The translations under genes and the position numbers were made by a program. Shown here piece by piece: positions 5,130 through 63,025 of a stretch of 64,000 nt of DNA. The notes under the pieces are model-generated. The model searched no databases and had not been told where the DNA came from. It worked only from the letters and a program-made list of their open reading frames with translations. The stretch covers positions 32,001 through 96,000 of IMG/VR virus record IMGVR_UViG_3300025276_000024; one strand, 5' to 3'. Every line of letters starts with the position of its first letter. The stretch's first letter is position 1. The stretch comes from a virus.

Positions 5130-5140
5130 AAATTATAACA

Positions 5141-6094
5141 ATGGGAGTATCACAAAAATATAGAACTTTTAGTCAATTAATGGAGGATGTCTCTATTGAT
5201 TTTTCAACATACGCATTAGAAGGTTTGATTGAACCAGCACAATTAATTAAAGTTGCAACAAGAGTAAACTATGATTTAGGTCTTAAGATTCATAGAACTA
5301 AAGAAGTTATTATAGATATTGAACATGGCAGAGGTCAAATGCCTATGGATTTTCAATATTTAAATTATGCATTTAGATGTGGTTCATATACTATTAATCA
5401 GACAATGCCTTCAGGAACACATATTGAAACATTTAATGATGTACCATATGTACCTGCACCAGGTGAAGTTGCTCCTTGTGAAGATGGAAAAGTATGTAAA
5501 GATGTATGTGTAGTCAAAACTTGTGATGATAAAAATAGTTATCAATTGGTACAAAGAGTTGGTCCAAATAATTTTAGAACATTTAATACTTGGACGGAAT
5601 TAAGAATTAAAGATGTAAATGATAAAGTATGTTATTGTCCTAGTTTAGGTGCACAAGCAATAGACATTGCTGAGATTAAAGACGGTTTTTTAGTTACAAC
5701 ATTTAGAACAGGTAAAGTTTATATTAGTTACCAAGGTGCAATGGAAAATGCTGAGGGAGATCTATTAGTATTAGATCAACCATATTGTAATGAATATTAT
5801 GAATATGCAATAAAACAAAGAATATTAGAAAACATGGTTTGGAATGGTGAGAATGTTTCTCAACAATTACAACTAGTTGAAGGAAGGTTAAGGGGTGCAA
5901 GGAATAATGCATTAAGTTTTGTCAATACACCAGATTTTGCAGATATGAGAAAGGTGTGGCATATGAATAGAAGAGCACAATATCATAATTATTATAACAT
6001 GTTTTTAAGTTATGCACCTTCTAATCCAAGAGTAGTTAGTGCACCCAATACATTACCAAGTTCAACAGCAACAACAGCATGTCCAACTTGTTAA
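5141..6094 (+). CDS. Tail ring/tubular protein
   Basis: Size and synteny (immediately before the stabilisation/muzzle gene); GKVYISYQG...D...LVLD motif resembles tail tubular proteins. Confidence 0.5.
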   Translation: MGVSQKYRTFSQLMEDVSIDFSTYALEGLIEPAQLIKVATRVNYDLGLKIHRTKEVIIDIEHGRGQMPMDFQYLNYAFRCGSYTINQTMPSGTHIETFNDVPYVPAPGEVAPCEDGKVCKDVCVVKTCDDKNSYQLVQRVGPNNFRTFNTWTELRIKDVNDKVCYCPSLGAQAIDIAEIKDGFLVTTFRTGKVYISYQGAMENAEGDLLVLDQPYCNEYYEYAIKQRILENMVWNGENVSQQLQLVEGRLRGARNNALSFVNTPDFADMRKVWHMNRRAQYHNYYNMFLSYAPSNPRVVSAPNTLPSSTATTACPTC

Positions 6095-6108
6095 ACAAGT
6101 AATATATT

Positions 6109-9100: not shown

Positions 9101-12100
9101 ATGCTATACCTGATCAATTTTTATACACAAGTAAACCTATCTTTAGTGGAGATGTTTCTATAAACAGATATACTGAAAAATGTATAATGCCAATCTTTAC
9201 AAACTTTCTAAAAGGCCAACCTAATTTTTATTCATTTGACTATAGTTTATATGTAAATATTCCTTATCCTAGATTCTGGTTGAACTCTACTAAATTTGAT
9301 ATTAGTGGTATTGCACGTGAAGTAGCAACATTAGGACTTAGCCCAGGAAGTTATGCAGATGCATTACCTACAGCAAAGTATTATTTAGATAGAGGATATG
9401 ACAACTGTCAGGGTGGTGGATTTTTTAATAGTTTATTTGGTGGTGGTGGTGACTTAAATCCAGCATGGAATATGTTGTATGCTTATATGTATACACACAT
9501 AAATGGGATAAATGAATTTTTTGTTGAGACAGAAATAAACTTAGCATATAGAGATTGGGAAGACATGCCTAGTAAAAGGTTTTATGATCCATATGAATTT
9601 AATGATTTAGGTGTATTGTTTCATCCTGATAATATTAAAGCAGATAACTTTTATAAGTATGATGATTCATTATCTGCTTCAAAGTTTCCTACACAAATGG
9701 GATCTTATGGTCAAATACAACCTAGAGATTATGATCCATACGTAGCAGCAAATTGTTATATAAGTTATCCTAAGAGATTAATATATTCTTTACAAGCTCA
9801 AGAAGAATCTAAAAGAGATTATTGGAGAGTATTTTTAAATAACAATTATAAAGATTTTAAAAATGAAGTTAGTATAATTAAACCCATAAATAAAAGTGGA
9901 GCAATTATATTTTTTCCATATCTATCACCACAAATGTTTCAGGGTTTAGATACATTAAAGACAGAAACAGATACTAAGCTTACTATAGGTGACGGAGGTT
10001 TATTTAGTCAGCCATTTCAGAATATAGCTAATGCAGATATATCTAATGAATATGGTTCATGTGAAAGTTTAAGAGGAGTTATAAATACACCTATGGGATT
10101 ATTTTTTATATCTCAACAACAAGGTAAAATATTTCAATATGCTGGTAAAGGGTTAGATCCTATATCTAATAATGGAATGAAGTGGTGGTTTAATAAATAC
10201 TTACCTTCTAGATTTATTAGACAATTCCCAGCATCTGAAAATTCACAATGGACTGATAATCCTGTTGCAGGAGTTGGATGTCAAGTAATGTATGATTCAG
10301 TAGATGATGTAGTATACTTTATGAAAAAGGATTATCAACTAAAGCCACAATTTATTGCAAGTGCAACATTTAGAGATGCTCCAACTAAACCAGTAACAAT
10401 TACTATATCAAGTAAACTAGCTGGTAGTGATACTAGAATTCCTATTGACATTGGTGATCCATTATATTTTGATGATTGTTCTTGGACGATTAGTTATGAT
10501 CCTAAATCTAAAGCATGGATTTCATTTCATGACTGGCATCCTGAATTAGCTTTACCAAGCATAAATCATTTTTTTACAACTAAAACTATTGAGACAACAA
10601 TACCTCAATGTCCTCCGGGATACAACTTTAATCCTATTACAGGTTTATGTGAGATAGGTGTAAATACATCAGAACTAGCAGATGTAATTATAGATCAAAT
10701 AGCATCTACAGTTTCAGGTGGTCCTACTGCTTGTAAATTAGATCTTGTAATATCAATGGATGTATCAGGAAGTACTATTAGTTTTGGTAGAAGACAGGCT
10801 CAACAGGCTTTTATGACTATATTATTAAATGATCCCCAAGTAGTCAACTTAATGTCTAATAGTCAAATGCAAGTTGGATTTTGTACTTGGGATAGCAGCA
10901 GTACAACATTTAATATACCTAACGGGGGGAGTACAGTAACAATGAGTCATTTAGTAACTGAAAATCAAGCTACCACCTTTATGAATAATAATTGGACGAA
11001 TGGTTCTACTAGTGTTGCATTAGGATTACAAACTGGATTTAATATACTTAGTAATGTATCAAATTCAACATTGGGTGATAGGACAGCAGATGCTGATTAT
11101 AGAGCAATACAGATTTTAATTACTGATACAACTGATGCCGCAGGAACTAATGCTGGACAAAATTATACATCTCAAGGTACTGGTACTGCTCCTAGTTATA
11201 TGTCTGTTTATGCTATGTACTGTGGAGCTTCTAGTTCTATTCCACCGACTGCAGGAGTATTAAATGATATATCTATGACTAGTGGACCTGTTAATGTTGA
11301 TCCATATCAATGGGGTATTAATGCATCAGATTCTTCTACTAGTCAAGCAGTAGCATCAGCAATTGCAGGTGCAGTATGTGGTACGGATTATGTATGTGAT
11401 TGTCCATCAGGATACACTAAAGTATTTTTTGATCCAACTACAGCAACTTATACAGCATCAAGTGGAGAATGTGATGACAGTGATAGAGCACCTGTCTGTA
11501 GAAAAGTAACATGTGATTGTCCTATATCTACAGTACCGGGTTCTGTTGTAACTCAGTCTGGTGCATGTCCTACTGGAGCAGATATATATAATTTAGATGG
11601 AACAGGTAATTGGACTGACCCAAATCCATTAGTATGTAATTATTTTTACTTTGATCAAATAGCTGCTAATTATAGAGTTGGGGGATTTTGGAGACATAAT
11701 GTAAGATGTGATTCATTTGTAAATTATTATGGTGAGGATTATCCTTGGGAAATAGATTTAATATCTAACACAGGACAAGCAGTTAATACAATAAGAAGTT
11801 TTGAATATCAATTAGAAACATATGTATATAAAGGAGATCCTCAATATAACATGTGTGGAGGAGATAAGTGGGAAGATTTAGATTATAATTTTGATGCATC
11901 TATTATATATAATAATGATCAAGTATCAGGACTACTAGTTTTAAATACTCAACCAGTTAATAATCCATGGGGTAATTTAACTTATCCTATTGTTGGTTTT
12001 AATAATATTGATATACTAGTTTCTAAAGTTGAACATAAGTTTAGATTTAATCAGTTTTGGGATATTACTAATGATAGAGGAGAATTTACAAATGTAGAAC

Positions 12101-12297
12101 AATCTATATTTGATACATCATGTAATGGTTATGTAAGACCATTAAATTCCATAAATCTAAATTATAATAAACCACAAACACAACGCAAGAAATTTAGACA
12201 CTACTCTAATAATATTATATTACGTAGAAATGTATCTGGAAATAGAAAGATGTTGCTTAGACTAAATAATACTAAACTTTTACTATCACAAAGATAA
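6109..12297 (+). CDS. Tail stabilisation/muzzle protein with inserted Cys-rich + vWA module
   Basis: N-terminal FNKGMNKD...ARNA and C-terminal WTISYDPKSKAWISFHDW motifs typical of crAss/podovirus tail stabilisation proteins; vWA DVSGS at ~10759. Confidence 0.75.
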   Translation: MAKKKESNPTPTPRNGSSSVNINSFNKGMNKDVAPSFESQQSWWHARNAANNSEDGDLGLIGNEPSNLQCGVIPYTVIGAIHRFGDEWIVYSTDNISSEIGRFDDSECKYTTIVNDPCLNFSTKHLITGAAKENFDCTWEVYWDDANNPSRAFNIDNVPYKKVQITGPLIDGDPCVTFEVIEPKQLNCEEIRLAPLLDTPCVKLTQATDGGMIRNGTYQAFIAYVENEQRVTDYIGVSNLQTIWSHEGGSGSLEITLTNLDQSYFFYELIILRRNQGQTSAKKIGLYSTEQSSINIDFIDEALVAIDLKLIPLRSPAYEKSESMFVVNDWLIRQGPTEQFDFNYQPIANNITTNWVVNQVSSKYYILGGNKLGFMRDEQYAFFIRWIYNTGERSSSYHIPGRAPRDYTLPSGIDKLENEPISGDNTIGTEPLFHVYNTADAISLNISEVQEDDSLVIARGEMGYWESTELYPSNRPDIWGDLCGKPIRHHKMPDESLGGSASPLHISTTTGDLINLIGVEFSNIGRPKYNNGSYIENIVGYEILRGSRQGARSILAKGMFKNMRKYRIPNAENLLGNSQGLYPNYPYNSLQDDVFFFDAGNNPDAEDTLTTGCDNFTQSINAYPPLSGYTKDVFTFSAPDLMFAKPFLNAYETKIYGAIHGKANGSFVPSEDHPQFKLLRPKAATLACVIGIGYALNAVQGTQSKGLNPLQANNLAGAPFVGVVPPVLSVGYPTIGTASGGGLSLFNLLQGLLMDTLLDGVVDMGDLYSGGVLSQLVYQAENTANLIKASVVPGASGGGTTSNTTFDKPEGSLPTLLRAFIGISMAQKNIAIGGNEIIDLFYNLVDEADFVYKYNSVGFYNTFEKVNRNNIFRTKNHDANYLGSSFQTFDGIKYKINNLFRPSTIAVSTVNELDNPPVIDNSRFSLGGYINQNGSTVDFENKYMKNPSGASSIQTNISALYGALKYNFDNQYGQLDGVKQIQMRGCVEPIGGLDKDGNAIPDQFLYTSKPIFSGDVSINRYTEKCIMPIFTNFLKGQPNFYSFDYSLYVNIPYPRFWLNSTKFDISGIAREVATLGLSPGSYADALPTAKYYLDRGYDNCQGGGFFNSLFGGGGDLNPAWNMLYAYMYTHINGINEFFVETEINLAYRDWEDMPSKRFYDPYEFNDLGVLFHPDNIKADNFYKYDDSLSASKFPTQMGSYGQIQPRDYDPYVAANCYISYPKRLIYSLQAQEESKRDYWRVFLNNNYKDFKNEVSIIKPINKSGAIIFFPYLSPQMFQGLDTLKTETDTKLTIGDGGLFSQPFQNIANADISNEYGSCESLRGVINTPMGLFFISQQQGKIFQYAGKGLDPISNNGMKWWFNKYLPSRFIRQFPASENSQWTDNPVAGVGCQVMYDSVDDVVYFMKKDYQLKPQFIASATFRDAPTKPVTITISSKLAGSDTRIPIDIGDPLYFDDCSWTISYDPKSKAWISFHDWHPELALPSINHFFTTKTIETTIPQCPPGYNFNPITGLCEIGVNTSELADVIIDQIASTVSGGPTACKLDLVISMDVSGSTISFGRRQAQQAFMTILLNDPQVVNLMSNSQMQVGFCTWDSSSTTFNIPNGGSTVTMSHLVTENQATTFMNNNWTNGSTSVALGLQTGFNILSNVSNSTLGDRTADADYRAIQILITDTTDAAGTNAGQNYTSQGTGTAPSYMSVYAMYCGASSSIPPTAGVLNDISMTSGPVNVDPYQWGINASDSSTSQAVASAIAGAVCGTDYVCDCPSGYTKVFFDPTTATYTASSGECDDSDRAPVCRKVTCDCPISTVPGSVVTQSGACPTGADIYNLDGTGNWTDPNPLVCNYFYFDQIAANYRVGGFWRHNVRCDSFVNYYGEDYPWEIDLISNTGQAVNTIRSFEYQLETYVYKGDPQYNMCGGDKWEDLDYNFDASIIYNNDQVSGLLVLNTQPVNNPWGNLTYPIVGFNNIDILVSKVEHKFRFNQFWDITNDRGEFTNVEQSIFDTSCNGYVRPLNSINLNYNKPQTQRKKFRHYSNNIILRRNVSGNRKMLLRLNNTKLLLSQR

Positions 12298-15200
12298 TGG
12301 GAAATAAAAAAAGCACAGGACTACCAGGAGGACCAAATGAATTTCTAAAAGATATTACACAACATATATCTGTAGATGGTTATAAACGTTATAGTGAAGA
12401 TGTAAACAATCCTTATAATGTTATTGAGTCAGGTAATATAACTATGGAAGATGTAGATTTTCCTGTTATGGGAACAGATAACTTAGGTAATAGTCAAATG
12501 ATGACACCTGGTAATAACTATCAGTTTCCAGGTGACAAAGTGTTTGAAATACCCATGGCTCAATATGGTATTAAAAATCAATACCCACTTCCAAAGAGAA
12601 ACGGTATTAGAGAGAACTATGATGCAGAAGGAAATGTCAATGGTGAGTCTTCTCATATAATGAGAACAGAAACTTTAGATGAAGTTAATTGGTTTTCTTT
12701 TCCTACTTTATTTCAAGATGAAGATGGTACTTGGGTTGACATGTCTAAAGAGGCAGAAAAAGACTGGAGACCTGCATATGAAGAAGCCAAAAGAAGAGGA
12801 GAAGTTATAGAGTTTGGTGAAGATAAAGATGCTGCTTTTAAATTTGGAGAAGGTTCTTGGAAACCTAAAATGAAACGTGGAGGTGGTTTACTAAATAAAA
12901 CCATGTCTTGTAATAGCTGTGGTTGGGAATGGAAAGCAGCAGATGGTGGAGCTGATGTATCTACATGTCACAAGTGTGGTGGGAGCGCATTACCTAAAGC
13001 TCAGTTTGGAAACAATGGAGAACAAACATTTTTACAAGCTATTACTAATCCAATTAGAAAAGCAGTGGCTGATAATATTTATCCTTATACTTATATGGAT
13101 CCGGTTGATAGGTTTTGGAATGCAATGAAAGGTGATAAAAATACTCATGATAATAGAAGTGATAATGCTAATGAAAACCCTGCATGGATGAATGAGAGGA
13201 CAGATCTTCTAAATTTATATATGGGTCAACCTCAAAAACATAATACAATAGAAGAGTCTCTTTATAAACCAACTAAGTCTAAAAATCCAGATGCAACTTA
13301 TTATACTTCTAAACAAACTGAAAAATCACTTATAAAGATGCTTCAGCGTAATGGGTGGAATGATTTTGATACATTAAAGAATTTTGGTGGGGTTTTAGGT
13401 CAGTTTAAAGTAGACAAAGGTGAAGATGAAAAAGGTAAGTATATATCATACTATGATGTGTGGGATGTAGAACCTTTAGATAATGTATTGTCAAAAGACA
13501 TGCAAAGCAAATTTGGAGTAAATGCTCCTGAAATATATGGTAGAATATATATAGATGATGTAAAAGATGTTCCAGCATACAGTAAAACTTTTGAAAGAAG
13601 TAAATTACCTGAAGGTCAGTACGGTGGCCGTTTTATGCAAGATGCTGGAGAAACTGAATTTGAAGATAATATCCAAACTGTACAATTACCTGAAGTAACA
13701 GTAACTGGAAATAAAGAAAAAAAAGGTTTTGATTGGAAGAATTTACTTAACAATACACTAAACCCTTTATATATTGCAGATAATGCATTACAGCTTTTAG
13801 GTACACCTGCTAATTTAGTTAGAGAAAGTATAGAAGGTATTAGTGGTAAAGGTGATGGTAAATTTAATTGGGGTAACATAGTACCTGATGTATATGGTAC
13901 TACTATACTTGATGATGATGCTAAACAAAAATCAGTATCACAAACTTTAGGTGTAGATAATTTTTGGGGAGGATTGGCACTTGACATGCTAACAGATCCT
14001 ACTACATATATTGGTGCAGGTATAGTAAAAAATCTTGTAAAAACTGGAGGTAAAAAAACAATACCTTCTGTATTAAAAGCTATTAAAGCTCCAATTAAAA
14101 AACAACTTAAAAAAATACCAAGAAAAGTAAACACACCTATTGTAGGTACAGACATGGTAATGACTACTAATTCTAAAATAGGTGAACTTGTTGATAAAAC
14201 AGGTATACCAAAAATGTTTTGGCCTAAAGGTTTTAACTACGGACCTGATGAATTTGGTAGAAGGTTTGTTGCAAGTGCAACTAATGAAAGTGGAGATATT
14301 GTTGATTTATCTAAATATACTGATGAAGTAGGTGATTATTTTTCTTTTGACAATGCCTTTGTAAAAAACCCTTTTACTGCTGGAAGAACAATGAATGCTA
14401 TGGAAGAGCTTGTACCTAAGTATGGTATTATGAAACAAAACACTTTAACAGGTTCATTAAGTGAAGATTCATTTAGTATGGCGTTAAACCGTTTAAGGAA
14501 CCCAAAGAAATTTTCAGATGCAACAGACTATGGACAAACCACTTTCTTAAATAGATCTGGTACTAATAGAACTATTGCAGACGGACCTGCAAGTAATTTT
14601 TTAAAAGATAAAGGTTTATTTGATGCTAGTGAAGTTAAAGCATTAGAACTTAAGTATGGTAAAATATTTGAACGCTTACAAAATAAAGGATTGTTAAATG
14701 ATGAGTTCCGTGGTTTAGGAATTAGAGGTGTAAAGTTAGATGGGTTAGCAGATGAAGTTTATCAAGTAGGTGTACCAAATATAGCATTGCAAAAACTATT
14801 TCAAGATGGTGGTGGTATAAGCCCTGATGTTTTATATAAGCAAGCGTTTATTGAATCTAGCTTAGATCCAAATGCAGCAAATGAAAAAGGATACAAAGGT
14901 TTAGGACAAATAGGTAGTGATATAATTGAAGATTATAAAAAAGCAACAGGTGTAGAGGAAGTAGATCCATTTAATCCTAAACAAAATAGTGATATACAAA
15001 AATGGTCAATGAATGAATTATATAACTCTTCATTTATAAATAAAGAAGGCCAGTTAGATTCTGTTAGATTAGCTAAAACATTAGCATCTTACAATTGGGG
15101 TAGAGGTAATGTTAGATCCTTATTAAATGAATTAAAAGAAGAAGGTGTAGATATATATAACTCAAGTGATTGGACATCCAGATTACCAAGGGAAACACGG

Positions 15201-17576
15201 GAATATATAGATATGATTCTTAACAATGCAGATACTGAAGGAAGACCTGATGTACAGGAAAATTTTAATAAAGTAAATACAGATGAAAAATATAAACAAT
15301 ATAAAGATTTATATACAATGCAATATGGAGGAGAAGACTTCCAACCTTATGATACTTCATTAATACCTGAATTTGCACCAGTTAATGAAGTAGATAAATA
15401 TATTGGTCCTTATAAAAGTGATTATACTCCAGTAGAAGGAGAATATGGTTATGACCCAACTAAAGAAGTAAAAACTAAACCTAATAGTAGAACATATAAA
15501 GTAGAAGCTGGAGATAACTTAACAAGAATAGCAGAAAAATATGATACTACAGTAGATGAAATTGTAACTCTAAATAATATTGACAACCCAAGTCAGATAA
15601 ATATTAATCAAGAAATTATTTTACCTGAGAGTAAAACTAAGTTTGCTGTTTATAATGTTAAGGCAGGAGATACATTAGGTAGAATAGCTAAAACATTTGG
15701 TACATCTACTAGAAAATTAAAAGAAGCTAACTCTCTTAGAGATATTAATAAAATTAATGTTAATCAACAATTAAAAATACCTCAAGAATCATATGAGCAA
15801 TTAGATGAAGTTAAAGAAAGTTGGATTGATGTAGATGTTTTAGATCAAGATAGAATGATCATTAATAGTGATGGATCAGATGAAGATATTATTAAAAAAT
15901 CACAATTAGTTAATGACCCTAATTCTCCTTATGTTATAGTAAATAAAAAAACAAAACGTTTAGAAGTTTGGAGAGGTGGTAAATCTATACTAGACTTTGA
16001 AGTACTAACTGGTGCTAATGAAGGTGACGCACAAACAGTAACTAAAATGTGGGATCTTAATGGTGATGGTATAATTACTGATGAGGATAAAAGAAATGGT
16101 AAATGGATACCTAATTGGGCTGCAGGAAATAAAAATACTGGGGCAGGTAAATTTTATATAAATGCTAGTTATGAAGACTCACCTAATAAATATGGTGGTA
16201 AAGGTGTACCTTCTTTTAATTTATTTACTGATGGTACTGACATAGATGTAGCAACAGCAATACATGGGCCTACTGCAAATAGAACTGGATTATTTGATGA
16301 TAATAATTTAGAAAACAATAAAGCAAGTAATGGATGTATAAATGGTCAATGTACTGATATGCAAGCATTATATGATTTAGATTTACCTAAAGGTACTTCA
16401 GTATATATTTTACCAGAAGATGAAGGTAATCAATTCCAATGGGTAGATGGTGAAGCGGTTATGAGAATGTCAGGTGAAAATAGAAAGAAGTATGGTTCAT
16501 CATATTTAGATTCACAGGGTAATAAACAAACAAGTCAAGGTTCTAACTATGCTACAAACACATTAAACTATAAACCAATTAGACCTGTATTTAATACAGA
16601 ACTCTTTGAAAAAGAAGTATATAATGAATCACGTATTGGAGATTATTTTACTTCTGATACTAGTGACAAACAAGAATTTGAAACAACAACAAAGCCCTTT
16701 ATAAATGCTTTGGTTGCAAACAAACAAAAAATCATGGTTACTGCTAGTATACCTAGTGATGTATATAATGATATAGCTAGAATAGCTTTTGGTATATATG
16801 GTAACGAATCTAAATTTGGTGATACACACAGTGGTTCTGGAAATCTTTTAAGAGGAGCTCAGAAAAAAGTAGCTGATATGAATAAAAAAGGTGAGTTACC
16901 TGTTATAGGATCTACATCTATGTTACCTACTGTAACTTCTTCACCAGATGTATTTAAAAAATATGATGGATATTCATTAGATAACATTACAAGTGCTGAG
17001 CCTTTCTATGAAATAAATGCAAGAGGAAATGATAACAGTGTTGGTCTAACACAATTAAGATGGTCTAATGTAGCTAATGAAGGTCTCACTAATGAAGAAA
17101 TAATTGCAGGTAAAGAATCTGATTTACTTAAACAGTTTTATGAGTTTGATATAAAATCAAATAAAGATTTATTAGATCCTGAAAAAGCAGCAATAGCAAC
17201 AGTTCTTAGATTGGCTTTTTTAGCTAATAATAGGAAGGGTGTAGATAGAAACAATTTATTTGAAACATTACCTAGACACTGGGGAGGGTCTAGTAAAGAT
17301 GGTGGTAAAACATATACTACCAATGTTATGAATAATGCTAAATATTTAAAATTTCAACAACTAGATAAGTATTTGCCTGGGTTTAAAAGAGGTGGAGAAA
17401 AACAAGATCTAGAAATGTACAAAGGTTATATGGAAGGTCTATATGATGGTACAGAAAAAGAAGTTGAAGCAAAGAATTTATATGATAAGCTTAATAGGCT
17501 TCATTATAATGATGCTAAAACCCTAGGTAACATGAGTCCTCCTAATTATATTATGACTCATTTGTATAAACCTTAA
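12297..17576 (+). CDS. Multidomain virion cell-wall enzyme: Zn-finger, SLT lytic transglycosylase, 2x LysM, YkuD-type L,D-transpeptidase, second lysozyme-like domain
   Basis: CNSC..CHKC; IES..GLGQ..SYNWG..PRETREY (SLT); YKVEAGDNL and YNVKAGDTL (LysM); IHG..SNGCIN (YkuD); GNES..VGLTQ..LLDPE (second lysozyme-like fold). Confidence 0.8.
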   Translation: MGNKKSTGLPGGPNEFLKDITQHISVDGYKRYSEDVNNPYNVIESGNITMEDVDFPVMGTDNLGNSQMMTPGNNYQFPGDKVFEIPMAQYGIKNQYPLPKRNGIRENYDAEGNVNGESSHIMRTETLDEVNWFSFPTLFQDEDGTWVDMSKEAEKDWRPAYEEAKRRGEVIEFGEDKDAAFKFGEGSWKPKMKRGGGLLNKTMSCNSCGWEWKAADGGADVSTCHKCGGSALPKAQFGNNGEQTFLQAITNPIRKAVADNIYPYTYMDPVDRFWNAMKGDKNTHDNRSDNANENPAWMNERTDLLNLYMGQPQKHNTIEESLYKPTKSKNPDATYYTSKQTEKSLIKMLQRNGWNDFDTLKNFGGVLGQFKVDKGEDEKGKYISYYDVWDVEPLDNVLSKDMQSKFGVNAPEIYGRIYIDDVKDVPAYSKTFERSKLPEGQYGGRFMQDAGETEFEDNIQTVQLPEVTVTGNKEKKGFDWKNLLNNTLNPLYIADNALQLLGTPANLVRESIEGISGKGDGKFNWGNIVPDVYGTTILDDDAKQKSVSQTLGVDNFWGGLALDMLTDPTTYIGAGIVKNLVKTGGKKTIPSVLKAIKAPIKKQLKKIPRKVNTPIVGTDMVMTTNSKIGELVDKTGIPKMFWPKGFNYGPDEFGRRFVASATNESGDIVDLSKYTDEVGDYFSFDNAFVKNPFTAGRTMNAMEELVPKYGIMKQNTLTGSLSEDSFSMALNRLRNPKKFSDATDYGQTTFLNRSGTNRTIADGPASNFLKDKGLFDASEVKALELKYGKIFERLQNKGLLNDEFRGLGIRGVKLDGLADEVYQVGVPNIALQKLFQDGGGISPDVLYKQAFIESSLDPNAANEKGYKGLGQIGSDIIEDYKKATGVEEVDPFNPKQNSDIQKWSMNELYNSSFINKEGQLDSVRLAKTLASYNWGRGNVRSLLNELKEEGVDIYNSSDWTSRLPRETREYIDMILNNADTEGRPDVQENFNKVNTDEKYKQYKDLYTMQYGGEDFQPYDTSLIPEFAPVNEVDKYIGPYKSDYTPVEGEYGYDPTKEVKTKPNSRTYKVEAGDNLTRIAEKYDTTVDEIVTLNNIDNPSQININQEIILPESKTKFAVYNVKAGDTLGRIAKTFGTSTRKLKEANSLRDINKINVNQQLKIPQESYEQLDEVKESWIDVDVLDQDRMIINSDGSDEDIIKKSQLVNDPNSPYVIVNKKTKRLEVWRGGKSILDFEVLTGANEGDAQTVTKMWDLNGDGIITDEDKRNGKWIPNWAAGNKNTGAGKFYINASYEDSPNKYGGKGVPSFNLFTDGTDIDVATAIHGPTANRTGLFDDNNLENNKASNGCINGQCTDMQALYDLDLPKGTSVYILPEDEGNQFQWVDGEAVMRMSGENRKKYGSSYLDSQGNKQTSQGSNYATNTLNYKPIRPVFNTELFEKEVYNESRIGDYFTSDTSDKQEFETTTKPFINALVANKQKIMVTASIPSDVYNDIARIAFGIYGNESKFGDTHSGSGNLLRGAQKKVADMNKKGELPVIGSTSMLPTVTSSPDVFKKYDGYSLDNITSAEPFYEINARGNDNSVGLTQLRWSNVANEGLTNEEIIAGKESDLLKQFYEFDIKSNKDLLDPEKAAIATVLRLAFLANNRKGVDRNNLFETLPRHWGGSSKDGGKTYTTNVMNNAKYLKFQQLDKYLPGFKRGGEKQDLEMYKGYMEGLYDGTEKEVEAKNLYDKLNRLHYNDAKTLGNMSPPNYIMTHLYKP

Positions 17577-17606
17577 ACCCTAAAGATTAGTGAATCTCCC
17601 TAATTA

Positions 17607-17626
17607 TTTGTATATTAATAATATAA
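17607..17626 (+). promoter_or_regulatory. Candidate phage late-promoter motif (copy 2)
   Basis: TTTGTATATTAATAATATAA, 10 nt before the GTG start. Confidence 0.55.
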
Positions 17627-17636
17627 TTATATCAAC

Positions 17637-20348
17637 GTGGATTTAAACAAAATAAGTGTAAAACAGCAAGGTGGACAAATGATTCCAGGTGAACCTGGTA
17701 TGCAATCACAACAACCTATGCATCAAATGCCTGATGGTTCAATGATGCCGGGTGCAACACATGGTGAACAACCTATGATGGGAGCTCAAGAGGAAATTGA
17801 CCCTCAAGTAATGCAAATTACAGAATTATTTAACACATCAATTCAAGAAGGTAATAAACCACATGATGTAGTTATATCTTTGATTGAACAACAAGTAGAT
17901 CAAAATCTTATAGGTCAAGCCCTTATGCAACTTGGTATGGAACAAGAAGCAATTGTGCAATTGTTTCAGGAAGTACAACAAATGCAACAACCTCAAGAAC
18001 CATCAGCTGAGCAGATCAATAATAATCCACAACAGATTTCAAGGGCAGAAGCTATACAAGAAGAAGCTCCAGGTATGGACATGAATATAACTTCTATAGA
18101 TCAAGCTAAGTCTGGTATAGAAATTAAGCCAGAGAACAAGGGAAAGTTTACTAGATGGGCTAAAGCCCGTGGTATGACCGTTCCTGAAGCTGCTAAGAAG
18201 GTTATGTCAAATACTAAGGCTTACCCACCATCTGTAGTTAAGATGGCTAATTTTGCAAAGAATGCAGCAACTTTTAAAAAACAAGAGGGTGGAGCAACAG
18301 ACTATACAGAAGGGGTAAGACAAAGAGAAGGTTCTTATAATCCTCCTAATAGAAAGTATACTTTAGATCCAAGATTTAAAGCACAGACAGGTACAGAAAC
18401 TTCTACAGCTAATACAGGAACACAGGGTCAGGAGAATCTCAACATGATGAATGCTATTACAGCAGGGAAAGTAAATTTTACTGACACAAGTAAACCTAAA
18501 CCAAAAGGACCAGGTTTTATTGAGGGTTTAGAAAATGAAGGTATTCTAGAGCCAGGACCAATGTATGTCAATCCTGCTATATATAATCAAGGCAAATTTA
18601 ATTTGGGTAATGCAGCTAATGCTCTACTTGGTGGTTATGAAGATATGTTTAGTGGAAGAGACACAGATGGTGATGGTGTTAAAGATGGTTCATTTAGAGA
18701 TTGGAAAGGCAAAACAATTAAAAATAAAATGAACAAAGTTGCTAATGCAACATATGATTTAGAACTTAATTTAAGTGATGAAAATAAAACTGCTGCCAAA
18801 AATTGGTGGGAACAGTTTAAAATAGAAAACCCTGATGAAACTCAACAAAAAGATTTATTGGGTAATATTATACAAACAGAAACTGAAAAGCAAATCAATA
18901 AGGCAAATGCACCAAGTGGATTATCAGATGTTTCTGCTAAATTAATAGAACAATGGAAAGCTGGTTCTGCTGCTACAAAAGCATATATTGAAAGTATATT
19001 AAAACAACAGGGAAAAACTATACCAGCTGAAGAAGAAGTTGAAGAAGAAGTTGAAGTAGAGGTAGAAAAAGAAGAAGTATTAAGAAATGGTGGTTCATTA
19101 CCAAGAGCTCAGTATAGTTTTCCAGATGGTCCAGGTAGCTATGATGGTAGCTATGGTGGTGGTAAATATACTTTTCCGGATGGGTTTGACTCTAGCACAA
19201 TGGACTTTAGTAATTACTTTAAACAATTTCAAACAACTGATTATAATAGAGATACTCGTAATGCAGCAGATGCTGTTTTACAATCAGCAAATCCTACATT
19301 AGGGCCTACTCCACTACAACAGCAAACCAATCAAATGATGCAGAACTTAGCATCAGGACCACAAAATGTTAGCACTAAGGCAAAAGAAGAAAAAGGATTA
19401 GTAGAAGAAGTAAAACCTGAAACTGCAGAAGATCTTTACAAAAAAATAGATCAAGGAAGTTTAGATGTAAACTATGGTGGTGTTGGTGGATTTATTGATA
19501 GAGTTAAAAATGGCAAAGTTGCAACAGCTTTTGGAGATGTAAGTGATTTTCTTGTAAAAGGTGCAGGTGTAGTTAATGATTATTTTGATGAAGTAGAGCA
19601 AGAAGAAGCTATGCAAGATATGAGAGTTGGTTTGTCTGCTGATAATATATATGGAACTAAGACAGATGCATTTAATAAAAGAGGTACCTTTGATATTAAT
19701 ACTGGGATAATGGGTAGTGAAGGTGATGCTACTACAGGATTATATATGAGCAAAAAAGGTGGGGGTGTTAATAACCCAGGCTTTAAAGCATTGCCACCAG
19801 AAGCGCAACATAACATACTTAAGTTTATGCAAAATGCAGGTGAGATAGTTGAAGTTCCTGCCGAGGAAGAGCAATTAACTGTAGCACAAGATACGTTACA
19901 ACCACTGCCAAAAGAATTTAGAGAAAGTGAACTAGGAAAACAACTTTATAATTTAAGTCAACCATCACAAGAAGAAGTAATGTCTGTATGGGATCAAGCT
20001 AAAAATATTGATTCAATAGGTACCGGTTTAGATTTCTTTTCAGAAGTATCTAAAAAAGATTTACAACGCCTTTTACAAGAAGCTCAAATAGAAAAGCAAG
20101 ATGTAAGAGATTATGTTTATGATCAACCTTTTTATCAAGATGCTAGTGGAGTAAGTAAATTTGGAATTAGATCAGCAATGAAAATTAAAGGATTAAAAAA
20201 AGGGGGAGAAGCTGCGTACTTAGCAAATAGAGATAGAGTTATAAAAAGAGAAATGGCTAAAGCACAAGGTGGTGGTGAAATAGTACAAGTAGATTCAAGA
20301 ATGTTGGCAAAATTAATTGCAGCTGGAGCTGACATAGAAAAATTATAA
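17637..20348 (+). CDS. Putative internal virion/cargo protein, Q/M/E-rich, modular
   Basis: 903 aa, GTG start, low complexity, many xxxGG-type linkers; lies between virion genes. Confidence 0.55.
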   Translation: MDLNKISVKQQGGQMIPGEPGMQSQQPMHQMPDGSMMPGATHGEQPMMGAQEEIDPQVMQITELFNTSIQEGNKPHDVVISLIEQQVDQNLIGQALMQLGMEQEAIVQLFQEVQQMQQPQEPSAEQINNNPQQISRAEAIQEEAPGMDMNITSIDQAKSGIEIKPENKGKFTRWAKARGMTVPEAAKKVMSNTKAYPPSVVKMANFAKNAATFKKQEGGATDYTEGVRQREGSYNPPNRKYTLDPRFKAQTGTETSTANTGTQGQENLNMMNAITAGKVNFTDTSKPKPKGPGFIEGLENEGILEPGPMYVNPAIYNQGKFNLGNAANALLGGYEDMFSGRDTDGDGVKDGSFRDWKGKTIKNKMNKVANATYDLELNLSDENKTAAKNWWEQFKIENPDETQQKDLLGNIIQTETEKQINKANAPSGLSDVSAKLIEQWKAGSAATKAYIESILKQQGKTIPAEEEVEEEVEVEVEKEEVLRNGGSLPRAQYSFPDGPGSYDGSYGGGKYTFPDGFDSSTMDFSNYFKQFQTTDYNRDTRNAADAVLQSANPTLGPTPLQQQTNQMMQNLASGPQNVSTKAKEEKGLVEEVKPETAEDLYKKIDQGSLDVNYGGVGGFIDRVKNGKVATAFGDVSDFLVKGAGVVNDYFDEVEQEEAMQDMRVGLSADNIYGTKTDAFNKRGTFDINTGIMGSEGDATTGLYMSKKGGGVNNPGFKALPPEAQHNILKFMQNAGEIVEVPAEEEQLTVAQDTLQPLPKEFRESELGKQLYNLSQPSQEEVMSVWDQAKNIDSIGTGLDFFSEVSKKDLQRLLQEAQIEKQDVRDYVYDQPFYQDASGVSKFGIRSAMKIKGLKKGGEAAYLANRDRVIKREMAKAQGGGEIVQVDSRMLAKLIAAGADIEKL

Positions 20349-20350
20349 TT

Positions 20351-23344
20351 ATGGCAAAAATTAAAATAAATAAATTACCACAAGGTTTTAGTATCCGTAA
20401 TGGAAATGTTGTAGAAGACAATACTATGAAAGATGGTGGAATGACTACAGGTGATCAAGCTGATTATGGTTTGGTTACAACTCCACAGGCATACTATGGT
20501 GAGACTAATTTTAACAATTCACAAGATGAATCAGTTAGATACAGTTTATCAAGTGTACCTAGAGAAGATGCAAATATAGAAGCAGAAGGTGGAGAAACAG
20601 TATTAACTGATTTGAATAATGATGGTACATTTGGTTTATATGACATACAAGGTCCTAGGCATGGAAGTGGTGGTGTTCCAATGTTTTTGCCTGATCAATC
20701 ATTTATTTTTTCTGATACTAGAAAACTAAAGTTTACTAAAGATGAAATGAATGAGTTTAATGTAGGAGGTAGTAAGAAAACCCCTGCTAAAATATCTAAG
20801 AAATTTGGACTGCAAGATTATTATGCTGAATTAGATTCACAATATGCTGATAACATATCTGCAACAAGTGCAGAGTTAATGTTAAAGAAAAACATGAATG
20901 ATTTATCTAAATTAGCATTTGTACAAGAAGCTAAAAAAGATTTTTCTGATGGTGTACCTTTAGCATCACATCCTTATTTAGTTTCTATAGGGGAAGACCC
21001 AATAGAGTTTACAGCTAAAGTAGAAGAAATATCAAGGAAAGAAGCAGAGGCCAAAGCACTAGCAGCATTACCCATTGAGCAACAGCAACAGATAATGATG
21101 ATGCAACAAATGATGGCTCAACAAGAACAACAACAGGGTATGCAACCACAAGGTATGCAACAGCAAATGCCACAACAAGGTATGCCTTCACCTATGGAAG
21201 AATTTATGCCTCAAGTAGGTGAGCCAGGTTTAGCTATGGAAAACAATGCTATGTTAGGAACTGCAATGTTTGGTTCTGAGTTAGGAGATTTCTTAACTAA
21301 AGCACAAGGGGGTGAGGAAATAGTATATGAGACAGTAGATACTGGAGATACTAATGATGGAGGTGTAACAACAGTTAATGATGGGTTTGGTTCATATTAC
21401 GTACCTCCAACTAGTGCCGCTGAAGAAGGTAAGTATTATCTAAATAAAAACACTGGTCAAGGTTATCAATTTACAAATGGAAAGTATGTTGAAGTAGAAC
21501 AGGTTACTCTTGATAGTGACAATAAAGTAGTCAGACCTCAAGTAGAAGTAGAAGAAACTTCTGAGGAAGTTGCATCAGGACCCACTAATGACGTTGCTGT
21601 GGAAGCTGTAACAACAGATAAAACTGTAGAGGCTACTGATAAACAAGTAGAAACTGTTGTTGATTCTGGGGGTAACAAAAACCCTTATAAAGCAGGAAGT
21701 GAAAAAGCTATAAAGTTTGATAAATTTATTGCTGATGGATATACTCCTACTATAGTAAAAGATGGTAAGAAGAGTAAAATATCTTTTGTACGTGAGGCAA
21801 AAGATGGTAGAACAATAAAAGGAGCTACTGAGGTTCAGGTATTTGATCAAGATAAAATAAAGGGTGCAGGTGGTTTAGGTGATACATATACTCCTGATAT
21901 TAGAGCTCAAGAAGAATTAAATAATGATCCTGATGTTGGTGATGTAGCTACATTTATATCTGGTAAGTTTTCTGGTAATAAATTACCTGACACACAATCA
22001 AGGAATACTGATGGTTTTGGATATGGTTCAGATATGTTTTCTAGTGAAGAATCTGAAGAAGATTTTTATTACAGAAATCAGACTGTTATAGATGAATTAA
22101 AAGCAGATGGTGTTGACTTCCAGTTTAACATGGATATGAAAGATCCAAACTATGATGCAAATTGGAGAGGCTTTCAAAACAAGTATGAAGAGAAAAGAAA
22201 AGAATACTTTGAGAAAAAAAATGTTCAATATATACCATACTTCTTTACAGATGAAGTATTACAAGAAAGACTTAAAAATGATCCTGATACTTATGATACA
22301 GATGGAGATGGTAAGTTAGATAAAGAATGGAAAAAAAGAAGGTTTGATGGTAAGAGAGGTGGTTATACTGTAAATGCTCCTGGGTTTGATATGAATTATC
22401 AAGCAAGAGATGAGCAGTTTATGGAACTTGATGAAGAACCACCAGAAACCAAAATACCACCAGTAGTCAAACCACCACCAAAAAAAGAATGGTGGAAACA
22501 AGATCAAAATAATATTCAAGCTTTAAATAATATTGATGATGAATTGTACCTGCCTTGGGCACCACAATTAGAAGATCAAAAAATTGATTATGTTTTGGAT
22601 GATTATACAGGCCGTGTTAATGCTAACCTTGCAAGTCAAAATACTATGGCTCAAGCATTAGGGGCATATGGTCCACAAGCTATTGCAAGAAGTAATATTC
22701 AAGGAAAAACTTTAGATGCTAATGCAAAAGCTATAAATCAAGTAAATCAAAACAATGTTAAAACAATGAATAGAGTAGCAACTATGCAACCTCAACTTGA
22801 TATGAAAGTTGATATGGCAAACAATGCTACAAATAAACAACTGTATGATGATACTACAGTAGCTCTTCAAAATGCTAATAACTTTGATAATTGGAAGACT
22901 GGTAAAATGAATGATTTATATAATGCTGGAATAACCAATGCAGCAAATACTTATAATATGAATCAGCTATATGATTATTATAATGTAAATACACTAAAAG
23001 GTGGGGATGTTGAATTTGGCCCTAATGGTAAAAAATTAATGAAAGATTCTTCTGGTAACTCAGCTCAGCAAAATATTGAGAATTACCAAGAGCTCCAAAA
23101 ACTAATGGGTAAAGATGAAAAAGGTAATCAACAGCAAGTTCCTGAATGGTTATTTAATCAAACTTATGGTACTACTCCACCAAATGCAAGTAGAACAAAT
23201 GGTCAAAATGAATTATTAAATAATTCAGGAGTAACTGGATATGACGCAGCTGGTAATAAAGTTGGTGGAGCAAGAAAAGGAAAAGAAATAAAGAAGTTAT
23301 CAAAGTGGGCAGTACCTTTTTACAGTGGTAAAATGGGATTATAA
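20351..23344 (+). CDS. Putative internal virion/ejection protein
   Basis: 997 aa; EAEGGE..GPRHGSGG motif, poly-Q/M tract, N/Q-rich helical C-terminus; synteny with cargo genes. Confidence 0.55.
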   Translation: MAKIKINKLPQGFSIRNGNVVEDNTMKDGGMTTGDQADYGLVTTPQAYYGETNFNNSQDESVRYSLSSVPREDANIEAEGGETVLTDLNNDGTFGLYDIQGPRHGSGGVPMFLPDQSFIFSDTRKLKFTKDEMNEFNVGGSKKTPAKISKKFGLQDYYAELDSQYADNISATSAELMLKKNMNDLSKLAFVQEAKKDFSDGVPLASHPYLVSIGEDPIEFTAKVEEISRKEAEAKALAALPIEQQQQIMMMQQMMAQQEQQQGMQPQGMQQQMPQQGMPSPMEEFMPQVGEPGLAMENNAMLGTAMFGSELGDFLTKAQGGEEIVYETVDTGDTNDGGVTTVNDGFGSYYVPPTSAAEEGKYYLNKNTGQGYQFTNGKYVEVEQVTLDSDNKVVRPQVEVEETSEEVASGPTNDVAVEAVTTDKTVEATDKQVETVVDSGGNKNPYKAGSEKAIKFDKFIADGYTPTIVKDGKKSKISFVREAKDGRTIKGATEVQVFDQDKIKGAGGLGDTYTPDIRAQEELNNDPDVGDVATFISGKFSGNKLPDTQSRNTDGFGYGSDMFSSEESEEDFYYRNQTVIDELKADGVDFQFNMDMKDPNYDANWRGFQNKYEEKRKEYFEKKNVQYIPYFFTDEVLQERLKNDPDTYDTDGDGKLDKEWKKRRFDGKRGGYTVNAPGFDMNYQARDEQFMELDEEPPETKIPPVVKPPPKKEWWKQDQNNIQALNNIDDELYLPWAPQLEDQKIDYVLDDYTGRVNANLASQNTMAQALGAYGPQAIARSNIQGKTLDANAKAINQVNQNNVKTMNRVATMQPQLDMKVDMANNATNKQLYDDTTVALQNANNFDNWKTGKMNDLYNAGITNAANTYNMNQLYDYYNVNTLKGGDVEFGPNGKKLMKDSSGNSAQQNIENYQELQKLMGKDEKGNQQQVPEWLFNQTYGTTPPNASRTNGQNELLNNSGVTGYDAAGNKVGGARKGKEIKKLSKWAVPFYSGKMGL

Positions 23345-53930: not shown

Positions 53931-53934
53931 AACT

Positions 53935-54641: not shown

Positions 54642-54665
54642 TATAAATATTAAAAATTAGAAATT

Positions 54666-59397: not shown

Positions 59398-63025
<3,628 letters not shown>

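What the first reader, a model, noticed from the sequence alone, without database searches (positions are those of the whole stretch)
12297..23344. Recurring hydrophobic-x-x-G-G linker bounds each module of three large virion proteins: candidate phage polyprotein-processing or cargo-addressing system
Seen: a short motif, [M/F/Y/A/L/K]-[K/Q/R/A]-x-G-(G), recurs throughout three consecutive ORFs. 1759 aa: AQYG ~12558, MKRGG 12870, AQFG ~12999, GQYGG/MQDAG ~13615, FQDGG ~14800, MQYGG ~15318, FKRGG ~17382. 903 aa: KQQGG, AKSG, KQEGG, AQTG, LRNGG, SKKGG, MQNAG, LKKGG, AQGGG. 997 aa: MKDGG, AMFG, AQGG, ARKG. The motifs sit at domain borders. MKRGG/AQFG bracket the Zn finger, FQDGG/MQYGG bracket the SLT domain, MQYGG/FKRGG bracket the LysM-YkuD-lysozyme block, and AKSG/KQEGG bracket a ~55-aa basic module (EIKPENKGKF..ANFAKNA). 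Known: double-Gly sites are cleaved by adenovirus and ASFV maturation proteases and by C39 peptidases. Inference: these genes are polyproteins of swappable cargo modules released or packaged via this signal, possibly by the zincin domain fused to the RNAP or by a head protease outside the window.
Basis: partly seen in the sequence, partly recalled or inferred. Interest (0 to 1): 0.85.

Follow-up and report, generated by a model that had tools for sequence, protein, structure and literature searches.

The report
Conserved Gly-Gly joints in phage cargo
Two, and more weakly a third, of the large proteins that this marine crAss-like phage probably carries in its particle are strings of interchangeable modules joined by one short conserved peptide ending in Gly-Gly; I found no paper describing it, and whether it is a cutting site, a loading handle or a hinge is still untested.

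Summary
The tight motif [K/Q/R]-x-G-G occurs 10, 7 and 3 times in the three ORFs, against 2.3, 1.6 and 1.3 expected. All other ORFs of the complete 114.8-kb phage genome sit at expectation. A scoring matrix trained on other proteins gives 13 hits in the whole proteome: 7 in the 1759-aa ORF, 5 in the 903-aa ORF and 1 in a 101-aa ORF.

The full unit is about L-P-K-[A/Y/F/M]-[Q/K]-x-G-G-[E/S]-hydrophobic. It falls in low-confidence linkers between confidently predicted domains. It also falls where homology to thousands of metagenomic relatives starts or stops. Codons differ between copies, so the constraint acts on the protein.

The genes occupy the cargo position after the tail ring and muzzle genes. 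One module of the 903-aa protein matches crAss001 cargo protein gp45.

The cleavage reading is neither shown nor excluded. I found no protease of the types known to cut at Gly-Gly and no head protease. The zincin motif also occurs in crAss001, whose cargo proteins lack the joint motif. The giant RNA-polymerase fusion has no such motif near its fusion joint.

My odds: processing signal 0.38, loading handle 0.30, hinge 0.17.

This scan has reported the same motif on at least five other genomes.

The parts
12297..17576 (+). Cargo protein of 1759 aa. Order of parts: N-terminal carrier module (20-90), insert module (101-187), Zn ribbon (198-233), three unassigned modules, SLT (840-947), two LysM (1055-1162), YkuD (1211-1371), and a second transglycosylase-like C-terminal domain.
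   Evidence: Pfam and PHROG hits. AlphaFold domains. Module limits from the ends of local alignments to 150 representatives. The C-terminal transglycosylase is called from motifs only (GNES...GLTQL); no family or PDB hit.
12549..12569 (+). Joint 1, IPMAQYG (residues 85-91), at the end of the carrier module.
   Evidence: 81 of 234 local alignments end at residues 81-100. pLDDT falls below 50 at 91-100.
12861..12887 (+). Joint 2, KPKMKRGGG (residues 189-197).
   Evidence: Matrix score 18.6 bits. 37 alignment ends at residues 181-200. pLDDT below 50 at 188-197.
12972..13010 (+). Tandem joint KCGG-SA-LPKAQFG (residues 226-238), after the Zn ribbon.
13605..13649 (+). Tandem joint LPEGQYGG / FMQDAG (residues 437-451).
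14796..14816 (+). Joint LFQDGGG (residues 834-840), directly before the SLT domain.
   Evidence: Absent at this position in close relatives that have another upstream module.
15315..15332 (+). Joint TMQYGG (residues 1007-1012), between SLT and LysM.
   Evidence: Relatives have LPVKQYAG at this position.
17373..17396 (+). Joint LPGFKRGG (residues 1693-1700), before the 59-aa C-terminal tail.
   Evidence: Relatives have MPNYAVGG.
17637..20348 (+). Cargo protein of 903 aa with no Cys. Joints at residues 7-13, 156-160, 213-219, 247-252, 481-493, 704-710, 730-735, 853-857 and 874-880. Its module at 153-215 resembles crAss001 cargo protein gp45 residues 366-425.
20351..23344 (+). Cargo protein of 997 aa with no Cys. 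It has an invariant 30-aa leader ending M-[R/Q/K]-x-G-G, and an A-x-[F/Y]-G ... KAQxG joint just before its variable insert. Motif enrichment in this ORF is weak.
52498..54893 (+). Three small basic ORFs (81, 101 and 75 aa) made largely of the same joint peptides. They are not contiguous: a 396-aa and a 133-aa ORF lie between the first and the other two. The 101-aa ORF is conserved in relatives, with a triple joint YAKGGG / F-x-NGG / (P)KAQLG.
4455..12297 (+). Context genes: tail ring protein 2, tail ring protein 1 and a 2062-aa muzzle-like protein. They place the three ORFs in the crAss cargo position.
   Evidence: PF25702 (E 1.3e-17) and PF24228 (E 1.5e-07). phrog_37948 and phrog_15100, plus hits to structural proteins of Cellulophaga and Flavobacterium phages.
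26787..40706 (+). 4639-aa fusion of a gp47-like protein (zincin motif HEAFH at residue 2163) with the virion RNA polymerase (DFDID at residue 3648). It has no joint motif near the fusion point.

Best explanation
The three ORFs are the cargo (ejection) proteins of a marine crAss-like phage. They are encoded directly after the tail ring and muzzle genes. Each is a string of independently folding, exchangeable modules: a carrier domain, a Zn ribbon, cell-wall enzymes and short helices.

Every joint, and the end of each short N-terminal leader, carries one conserved peptide of about L-P-K-[A/Y/F/M]-[Q/K]-x-G-G-[E/S]-hydrophobic.

Shown here: the motif is real, it is selected at the protein level, it is confined to these cargo proteins and a few tiny basic proteins, and it coincides with module borders.

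Inferred: the peptide is a recognition signal for proteolytic processing after the proteins have been loaded. Cutting at or next to Gly-Gly would remove the leaders, much as T4 removes its capsid-targeting sequences. It would also free the modules, either in the head or after ejection. The enzyme is not identified. It could be the virion zincin, another phage protein without a recognisable fold, or a host peptidase.
For: - Enrichment and specificity are strong.
- Codons differ between copies, so no DNA element explains the motif.
- The joints lie in low-pLDDT linkers between confident domains in two AlphaFold models.
- 40-46% of internal homology borders in 150 diverse relatives have the motif within 12 residues, against 9-10% of random positions.
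- Inserts begin directly after GG.
- In 282 non-redundant strict joints, recognition is extended on the upstream side: P7 Pro 5.7x, P5 aromatic, Ala or Met, P4 Gln 11.6x or Lys 5x. The core pair is small (GG, GA or GS). At P1' Pro (0.4x), Lys (0.1x) and Ile/Leu (0.2x) are depleted. This is the pattern of a protease subsite profile.
- The invariant N-terminal leaders of 13 and 30 aa end in the motif.
- The motif also stands 3-6 residues before many C-termini, which a hinge does not explain.
- The tiny basic proteins carry 3-4 copies each.
- Published view: fused crAss cargo polyproteins are 'likely cleaved', and polyvalent phage proteins are proposed to be processed by embedded metallopeptidases.
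Against: - I found no peptidase of classes S77, S78, C5, C48, C39 or M23 in a genome rated 100% complete.
- No peptidase appears among the listed Pfam or PHROG hits of the other ORFs. Only the top 25 families of each scan were shown.
- The zincin motif is shared with crAss001, whose cargo proteins lack the joint motif.
- The RNA-polymerase fusion joint lacks the motif.
- In crAss001 the authors model gp45 as one chain running from tail to capsid and report no cleavage.
- Conservation continues on the downstream side: P2' is Leu, Val or Ile in 54% of joints.
- Individual joints are lost or degenerate in relatives with about 62% identity.
- The widely shared N-terminal carrier module implies that the chain must stay whole at least until it is loaded.
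Confidence: 0.38

Rival explanations
1. Loading or docking handle. The joint peptide is a short linear motif that binds a repeated site inside the procapsid or tail (portal, tail rings, the capsid's inner face or the scaffold). Many weak copies would pull the cargo proteins, and the tiny basic proteins, into the particle and hold them as an extended chain. Nothing is cut.
For: - The motif is confined to the first cargo proteins and the tiny basic ORFs.
- It is conserved on both sides of GG over about 9-10 residues.
- Copies occur at the extreme N- and C-termini.
- No protease was found.
- Precedent: short segments of crAss001 gp45 bind the muzzle, the tail rings and the portal while the chain stays extended.
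- The 903-aa protein shares a module with gp45, and gp45's only KxGG (AKDGG, residue 371) aligns with AKSG of the 903-aa protein.
Against: - No receptor is identified.
- A universal N-terminal carrier module already looks like the targeting part.
- A handle need not sit at every module border.
- crAss001 loads its cargo without the motif.
Confidence: 0.3
2. Structural punctuation only. The peptide is a helix C-cap plus a Gly-Gly hinge plus the N-cap of the next element. It has been kept as the standard connector because modules move together with their connectors. It lets modules fold and unfold separately while the chain passes through the portal and tail.
For: - In the model of the 903-aa protein, joints follow helix ends or lie in disordered linkers.
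- Glu or Ser after GG is a typical helix N-cap.
- Joints are degenerate and individually dispensable in close relatives.
- Ejection through a narrow channel needs partial unfolding.
Against: - A hinge needs neither Gln/Lys at P4, an aromatic at P5 nor Pro-Lys at P7-P6. All are strongly enriched across proteins clustered at 50% identity or less.
- Copies 3-6 residues from C-termini and in invariant N-terminal leaders have nothing to hinge.
- The tiny ORFs consist almost wholly of joints.
- Codon diversity rules out simple copy-and-paste of connectors.
Confidence: 0.17
3. Chaperonin handle. The joints imitate the Gly-Gly-hydrophobic mobile loop of GroES, so that the phage's own GroEL/GroES can hold or fold the cargo proteins before loading.
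For: - The phage encodes Cpn60 and Cpn10.
- The mobile loop of its GroES reads LSKGGIYIP.
- Motif-bearing phi4:1 has Cpn10. Motif-free FPSV-S29 has none, and crAss001 has only a sub-threshold hit.
Against: - The register differs: GroES has K-G-G followed by three hydrophobic residues, whereas the joints have [Q/K]-x-G-G, a polar residue and then one hydrophobic.
- The correlation rests on four genomes.
- phi4:1 has no Cpn60.
Confidence: 0.05

Closest known systems
Cargo proteins C1 (gp45) and C2 (gp46) of Bacteroides phage crAss001 (Bayfield et al. 2023, PMC10172136)
   Same: Same genomic position: ring proteins, then muzzle, then cargo, then RNA-polymerase-associated giants. Both sets are poor in or free of Cys. 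Residues 153-215 of the 903-aa protein align with gp45 residues 366-425 (41% identity, hhalign E 2.2e-5, probability 76%).
   Different: gp45 and gp46 are not enriched for the joint motif (1 and 0 hits against 2.3 and 0.4 expected). The Pfam crAss_CARG1 domain (PF25725) is not found in this genome. The 997-aa protein shows no similarity to gp45 or gp46. The proteins here carry cell-wall enzymes and many more modules.
Polyvalent proteins of phages and conjugative elements (Iyer, Burroughs, Anand, de Souza, Aravind 2017, PMC5512222)
   Same: Many unrelated domains in one polypeptide that is delivered with the DNA. Cell-wall enzyme domains are present, the mosaicism is extensive, and processing into units is proposed.
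   Different: That paper does not use the word 'linker' and describes no junction peptide. Here the metallopeptidase motif sits in a separate giant ORF, not in the motif-bearing proteins.
T4 capsid-targeting sequences and the prohead-protease sites of T4 and phiKZ-like phages (from my own knowledge; SPN3US papers PMC5694885 and PMC10052503 were listed but not read)
   Same: Short N-terminal leaders on packaged proteins. A short motif recurs in internal and ejected proteins and in small internal proteins.
   Different: Those motifs end in Glu (L/I-x-E, or S/A/G-x-E), and a gp21-type protease is encoded. No S77 or S78 protease is found here. Glu follows GG in only about a quarter of joints.
Gly-Gly-specific cysteine proteases: adenovirus protease, ASFV pS273R, Ulp/SUMO proteases, and C39 bacteriocin-leader peptidases (specificities from my own knowledge)
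   Same: A small Gly-Gly pair preceded by a hydrophobic residue and a variable residue. Short tails after GG at C-termini recall ubiquitin-like precursors.
   Different: The hydrophobic residue is at P5 and Gln/Lys at P4, one position further from GG than in the (M/I/L)-x-G-G rule. No C5, C48 or C39 domain is found in the genome.
Conserved boundary motifs of polymorphic toxins, such as VENN in CdiA and PxxxxDPxGL in Rhs (from my own knowledge; Zhang et al. 2012, PMC3482391, was listed but not read)
   Same: A conserved N-terminal delivery part, variable payloads, and a short conserved peptide at the switch point.
   Different: Here there are many joints per protein rather than one, the setting is a phage virion, and there is no immunity gene.

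Membership tests
crAss-type virion cargo proteins (C1/C2 of crAss001) | Encoded directly downstream of the tail ring and muzzle genes and upstream of the RNA-polymerase-associated giant proteins. | tested here: met
   Ring 2 (PF25702) and Ring 1 (PF24228). Muzzle-like 2062-aa ORF. gp47-like, gp50-like and gp49-like ORFs downstream.
crAss-type virion cargo proteins (C1/C2 of crAss001) | Sequence homology to gp45 or gp46. | tested here: inconclusive
   One 60-residue module of the 903-aa family matches gp45 (E 2.2e-5, probability 76%). No match to gp46. The 997-aa family matches neither.
crAss-type virion cargo proteins (C1/C2 of crAss001) | Pfam crAss_CARG1 domain (PF25725). | tested here: not met
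   No match in the whole genome at E <= 10. The protein-atlas feature hit of 0.91 was only a lead.
crAss-type virion cargo proteins (C1/C2 of crAss001) | Physically present in virions and ejected into the host. | not testable with these tools
   The phage is uncultured. The motif-bearing proteins gp040 and gp041 of Cellulophaga phage phi4:1 are annotated as structural from MS/MS.
Substrates of adenain/Ulp-type (clan CE) Gly-Gly proteases | Consensus (M/I/L)-x-G-G with the hydrophobic residue at P4. | tested here: not met
   The hydrophobic or aromatic residue is at P5 and Gln/Lys at P4.
Substrates of adenain/Ulp-type (clan CE) Gly-Gly proteases | A cognate C5 or C48 protease encoded by the virus. 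| tested here: not met
   PF00770 and PF02902: no match at E <= 1 in a genome rated 100% complete. A divergent fold cannot be excluded.
Double-glycine leader peptides (C39 peptidase substrates) | A C39 peptidase domain in the same system. | tested here: not met
   PF03412: no match in the phage genome. Host C39 transporters were not examined.
T4/HK97-type prohead-protease maturation | A prohead protease gene (S77 or S78) in the head module. | tested here: not met
   PF03420 and PF04586: no match. The head module reads terminase, portal, a 436-aa scaffold-like ORF, then the capsid protein, with no protease hit.
Phage polyvalent proteins (Iyer et al. 2017) | Two to fifteen unrelated domains in one polypeptide, in a virion or late-gene context. 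| tested here: met
   At least eight modules in the 1759-aa ORF.
Phage polyvalent proteins (Iyer et al. 2017) | An embedded zincin-like metallopeptidase domain in the same polypeptide. | tested here: not met
   There is no HExxH in the three ORFs. HEAFH lies in the separate 4639-aa ORF.

The most novel reading that the evidence does not exclude
The joint peptide is the substrate signal of a so far unrecognised phage maturation system. A protease with no detectable similarity to known families, or a repurposed virion zincin or host enzyme, would cut cargo polyproteins at L-P-K-[hydrophobic]-[Q/K]-x-G-G. That would release dozens of modules and small basic peptides inside the head or in the infected cell. 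It would be a bacterial-virus counterpart of adenovirus and ASFV Gly-Gly maturation, and it would be spread over thousands of marine crAss-like phages.
Probability: 0.3. Interest if true: 0.85.

Novelty: new variant of a known kind. Interest (0 to 1): 0.62.

Why it matters
crAss-like phages load several megadaltons of cargo protein, and how that cargo is selected, stored and released is an open question.

A single conserved joint peptide gives a concrete handle on it. The peptide is present in thousands of cargo proteins of marine crAss-like phages (3220 relatives of one N-terminal region alone). It is also present in a cultured phage, Cellulophaga phage phi4:1.

The peptide can be mutated, used as bait, or searched for as a new terminus in virion mass spectra.

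If it is a cleavage site, it defines a new phage maturation system with an unknown protease. If it is a handle, it could be used to load foreign proteins into phage particles. In either case it also explains how these phages swap enzymatic payloads.

Tried and rejected
- DNA-level explanation (a recombination site, promoter or RNA element). Rejected, because the Gly, Gln and Lys codons differ from copy to copy.
- The zincin of the RNA-polymerase protein as the specific protease. Not supported.
- Search for a protease or a receptor shared only by motif-bearing phages, by tblastn of all ORFs against Cellulophaga phage phi4:1. Only terminase, portal, capsid, ring, muzzle and ribonucleotide reductase genes matched, so nothing was gained.
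- Pfam and PHROG scans of 69 further ORFs. No peptidase was among the listed families, but only the top 25 of 40 and of 75 families were shown.
- Six protease families searched in six frames: no match.
- Fold search of the model of the first 835 residues of the 1759-aa protein. Foldseek gave nothing at E <= 0.001. VIA-align gave at best Z 4.7, to small beta-sandwich or cupin-like folds for residues 18-91, which is not significant. No protease fold was seen, and residues 240-835 were modelled too poorly to judge.
- Sequence searches against the PDB and NCBIfam for the unassigned parts: nothing.
- Cultured relatives: tblastn of the 903-aa and 997-aa proteins and of residues 1-240 of the 1759-aa protein against GenBank phages found nothing.
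- Literature: I found no description of the joint peptide.
- Pupylation, ubiquitin-like tags, sortase LPXTG, TonB box, Gln-Lys crosslinks and L,D-transpeptidase substrates were considered from memory. I dropped them because the registers do not fit or the partner systems are absent. None was tested.

Full report
WHAT THE REGION IS

The window lies in a 114,829-bp phage record rated 100% complete. GC content is about 32%.

The head module, outside the window, reads terminase, portal, a 436-aa scaffold-like ORF and the major capsid protein.

Inside the window the gene order is as follows.
- Tail ring protein 2 (4455-5129; PF25702, E 1.3e-17) and tail ring protein 1 (5141-6094; PF24228, E 1.5e-07).
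- A Cys-rich 2062-aa muzzle-like protein (6109-12297). It matches virion structural protein families and structural proteins of Cellulophaga and Flavobacterium phages at about 25% identity.
- Six large proteins poor in or free of Cys, of 1759, 903, 997, 1123, 4639 and 1948 aa.
- The 4639-aa ORF is a fusion. Its residues 2162-2287 match the end of crAss001 gp47, including YHEAFH. Its residues 3336-3661 match the catalytic region of the gp50 RNA polymerase, with DFDID at 3648.
- The 1948-aa ORF matches gp49.

This is the crAss001 layout of ring proteins, muzzle, cargo C1/C2 and RNA-polymerase-associated proteins. The three ORFs of the finding therefore sit in the cargo position.

THE OBSERVATION

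- The tight form [KQR]xGG is strongly enriched in the 1759-aa ORF (10 against 2.3 expected) and the 903-aa ORF (7 against 1.6).
- It is only weakly enriched in the 997-aa ORF (3 against 1.3).
- It is at expectation in every other ORF of the genome.

I built a 12-column matrix from 522 non-redundant contexts in other proteins. At a threshold that expects 1.6 hits per shuffled proteome it gives 13 hits in the 36,049-residue proteome. Seven are in the 1759-aa ORF, five in the 903-aa ORF and one in a 101-aa ORF; there are none elsewhere.

Codons at the copies vary (GGT, GGA, GGG; CAA, CAG; AAA, AAG). The signal is therefore in the protein, not the DNA.

THE MOTIF IS LONGER THAN DESCRIBED

In 150 representatives of clusters at 50% identity, 39% of all GG dipeptides have Gln or Lys two residues upstream. 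P[KR]AQxG occurs 126 times. [KQR]xGG occurs 594 times against 193 expected.

In 282 strict joints the profile is as follows.
- P7: Pro (5.7x).
- P6: Lys or Met.
- P5: Tyr, Ala, Phe or Met.
- P4: Gln (11.6x) or Lys (5x).
- P3: polar.
- P2-P1: Gly-Gly.
- P1': Glu, Ser, Gly or Trp, with Pro, Lys, Ile and Leu depleted.
- P2': Leu, Val or Ile (54%).
- P3': Pro.

It is often present in tandem, as in KCGG-SA-LPKAQFG and LRNGG-S-LPRAQY.

THE MOTIF MARKS MODULE BORDERS

AlphaFold model of residues 1-835 of the 1759-aa protein:
- Confident domains are at 20-90, 101-187 and 198-233.
- pLDDT is below 50 exactly at 91-100, 188-197 and 234-243, where the joints lie.

AlphaFold model of the 903-aa protein:
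- Confident parts are at 55-125, 165-211 and 745-870.
- All its joints lie at helix ends or in disordered linkers.

An exhaustive search with residues 1-835 found 3220 relatives.
- Local alignments end in clusters at residues 81-100 (81 of 234), 181-200 (37) and 231-240 (21).
- In the relatives, 40-46% of internal alignment borders have a motif within 12 residues, against 9-10% of random positions.
- The carrier module (residues 1-91) starts about a hundred otherwise different proteins of 163-3301 aa.
- Module 94-189 is an insert that many relatives lack.
- The other modules occur at other positions in other proteins, each again flanked by joints.

In the families of the 903-aa and 997-aa proteins (402 and 547 hits):
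- The joints are conserved in position.
- Inserts start right after GG.
- Short helical mini-modules are exchanged between the two families.

Not every regex hit is a joint. KYGG at 1298 lies inside YkuD and KDGG at 1667 inside the C-terminal domain, and both are conserved as parts of those folds.

Individual joints are not sacred. In relatives with about 62% identity, FKRGG is replaced by YAVGG, MQYGG by KQYAG-P, and the joint before SLT is missing.

DISTRIBUTION

- crAss001 gp45, gp46, gp47, gp49 and gp50 are not enriched for the motif. Nor is Flavobacterium phage FPSV-S29.
- Cellulophaga phage phi4:1, which is cultured and has virion MS/MS annotation, has the motif in the two proteins after its muzzle-like gene. 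gp040 has 7 against 1.4 expected, with the last copy 3 residues before the C-terminus. gp041 has 2.
- Three small basic ORFs 30 kb downstream (81, 101 and 75 aa) consist largely of joints. The 101-aa ORF is conserved in relatives, with an N-terminal triple joint.
- The 903-aa family's best-conserved module (residues 153-215) aligns with crAss001 gp45 residues 366-425 (41% identity, E 2.2e-5, probability 76%). gp45's single KxGG (AKDGG) is aligned to AKSG.

HOW IT MAY WORK

Cleavage. In favour are the protease-like subsite profile, the small core residues, the leaders of 13 and 30 aa that end in the motif, the short tails after GG at C-termini, and the published expectation that crAss cargo polyproteins are processed.

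Against it:
- I found no S77, S78, C5, C48, C39 or M23 peptidase.
- No peptidase appeared among the listed family hits of the other ORFs.
- The only metallopeptidase signatures are the gp47-like HEAFH and a DUF2201/vWA protein. crAss001, which lacks the joint motif, has the same HEAFH motif and also encodes a metalloprotease-domain protein (gp77) and a vWA-like protein (gp52).
- The RNA-polymerase fusion joint has no motif.
- gp45 in crAss001 is modelled as a continuous chain, and that paper does not mention cleavage.

Loading or docking handle. This fits the conservation on both sides of GG, the terminal copies and the crAss001 precedent of short cargo segments bound to muzzle, rings and portal. 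It has no identified receptor. It also competes with the N-terminal carrier module as the likely targeting part.

Pure hinge. This fits the positions at helix ends. It does not explain the specific residues at P7-P4, the terminal copies or the tiny joint-only proteins.

Chaperonin handle. The phage encodes GroEL and GroES, and the GroES loop reads LSKGGIYIP. This is a long shot.

My odds: cleavage 0.38, handle 0.30, hinge 0.17, chaperonin 0.05, something else 0.10.

COMPARISON AND NOVELTY

The proteins are crAss-type cargo proteins and fit the 'polyvalent protein' concept. The joint peptide is not described in the papers I could search.

Earlier follow-ups of this scan reported the same motif on at least five other genomes and left its function open.

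- the extended consensus;
- the proteome-wide specificity;
- quantitative support that the motif sits at module borders;
- the link to gp45;
- the negative result for the zincin idea;
- a cultured phage in which the question can be tested.

Noticed in passing
window 59398-61032 (-) and G000 7970-8287 (+): The phage encodes its own GroEL (Cpn60, E 1.5e-75; phrog chaperonin groEL, E 7e-175) and GroES (Cpn10). Close relatives also have Cpn60. Cellulophaga phage phi4:1 has Cpn10 only.
   Followed up: partly
window 26787-40706: The 4639-aa ORF is a fusion of a crAss001 gp47-like protein (YHEAFH at 2163) and the gp50-like virion RNA polymerase (DFDID at 3648). The 1948-aa ORF that follows is gp49-like. 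I saw no obvious linker motif at the fusion point (about residues 2335-2400).
   Followed up: partly
window 17637-46567: The 903-, 997- and 1123-aa proteins have no Cys. The 4639- and 1948-aa proteins have one each. The muzzle-like protein has 34. This fits proteins that must be ejected unfolded.
   Followed up: partly
window 17676-17790 and 21050-21230: Long low-complexity stretches rich in Met, Gln and Pro follow the N-terminal joint of the 903-aa protein and precede the variable insert of the 997-aa protein. They may be sticky or condensate-forming segments.
   Followed up: no
window 20277-20345: The last 20 residues of the 903-aa protein (V-D-S-x-M-L-A-K-L-I-A-A-G-A-D-I-E-K-L) are nearly invariant across 48 relatives that have 43-69% overall identity. 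This suggests a specific binding partner.
   Followed up: partly
window 12357-12569: The carrier module of the 1759-aa protein (residues 20-90, pLDDT 77-97, a small beta-sandwich) is the N-terminus of about a hundred otherwise different proteins of 163-3301 aa. It is a candidate virion-targeting or tail-plug domain. No significant fold match (best Z 4.7).
   Followed up: partly
window 53935-54336: A 133-aa ORF with two hydrophobic helices lies directly upstream of the 101-aa joint-rich ORF. It is probably the ORF behind the holin family hits (GTA_holin_3TM; phrog holin), though the scans do not name the member.
   Followed up: no
G000 100566-101729 (-), beyond the window: A DUF2201 putative metallopeptidase with a vWA-like domain (HELLH motif). 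crAss001 also encodes a metalloprotease-domain protein (gp77) and a vWA-like protein (gp52), so such genes are not specific to motif-bearing phages.
   Followed up: partly
window 16434-17573: The C-terminal domain of the 1759-aa protein has lytic-transglycosylase-like motifs (GNES, GLTQL) but no Pfam, NCBIfam or PDB sequence hit.
   Followed up: partly
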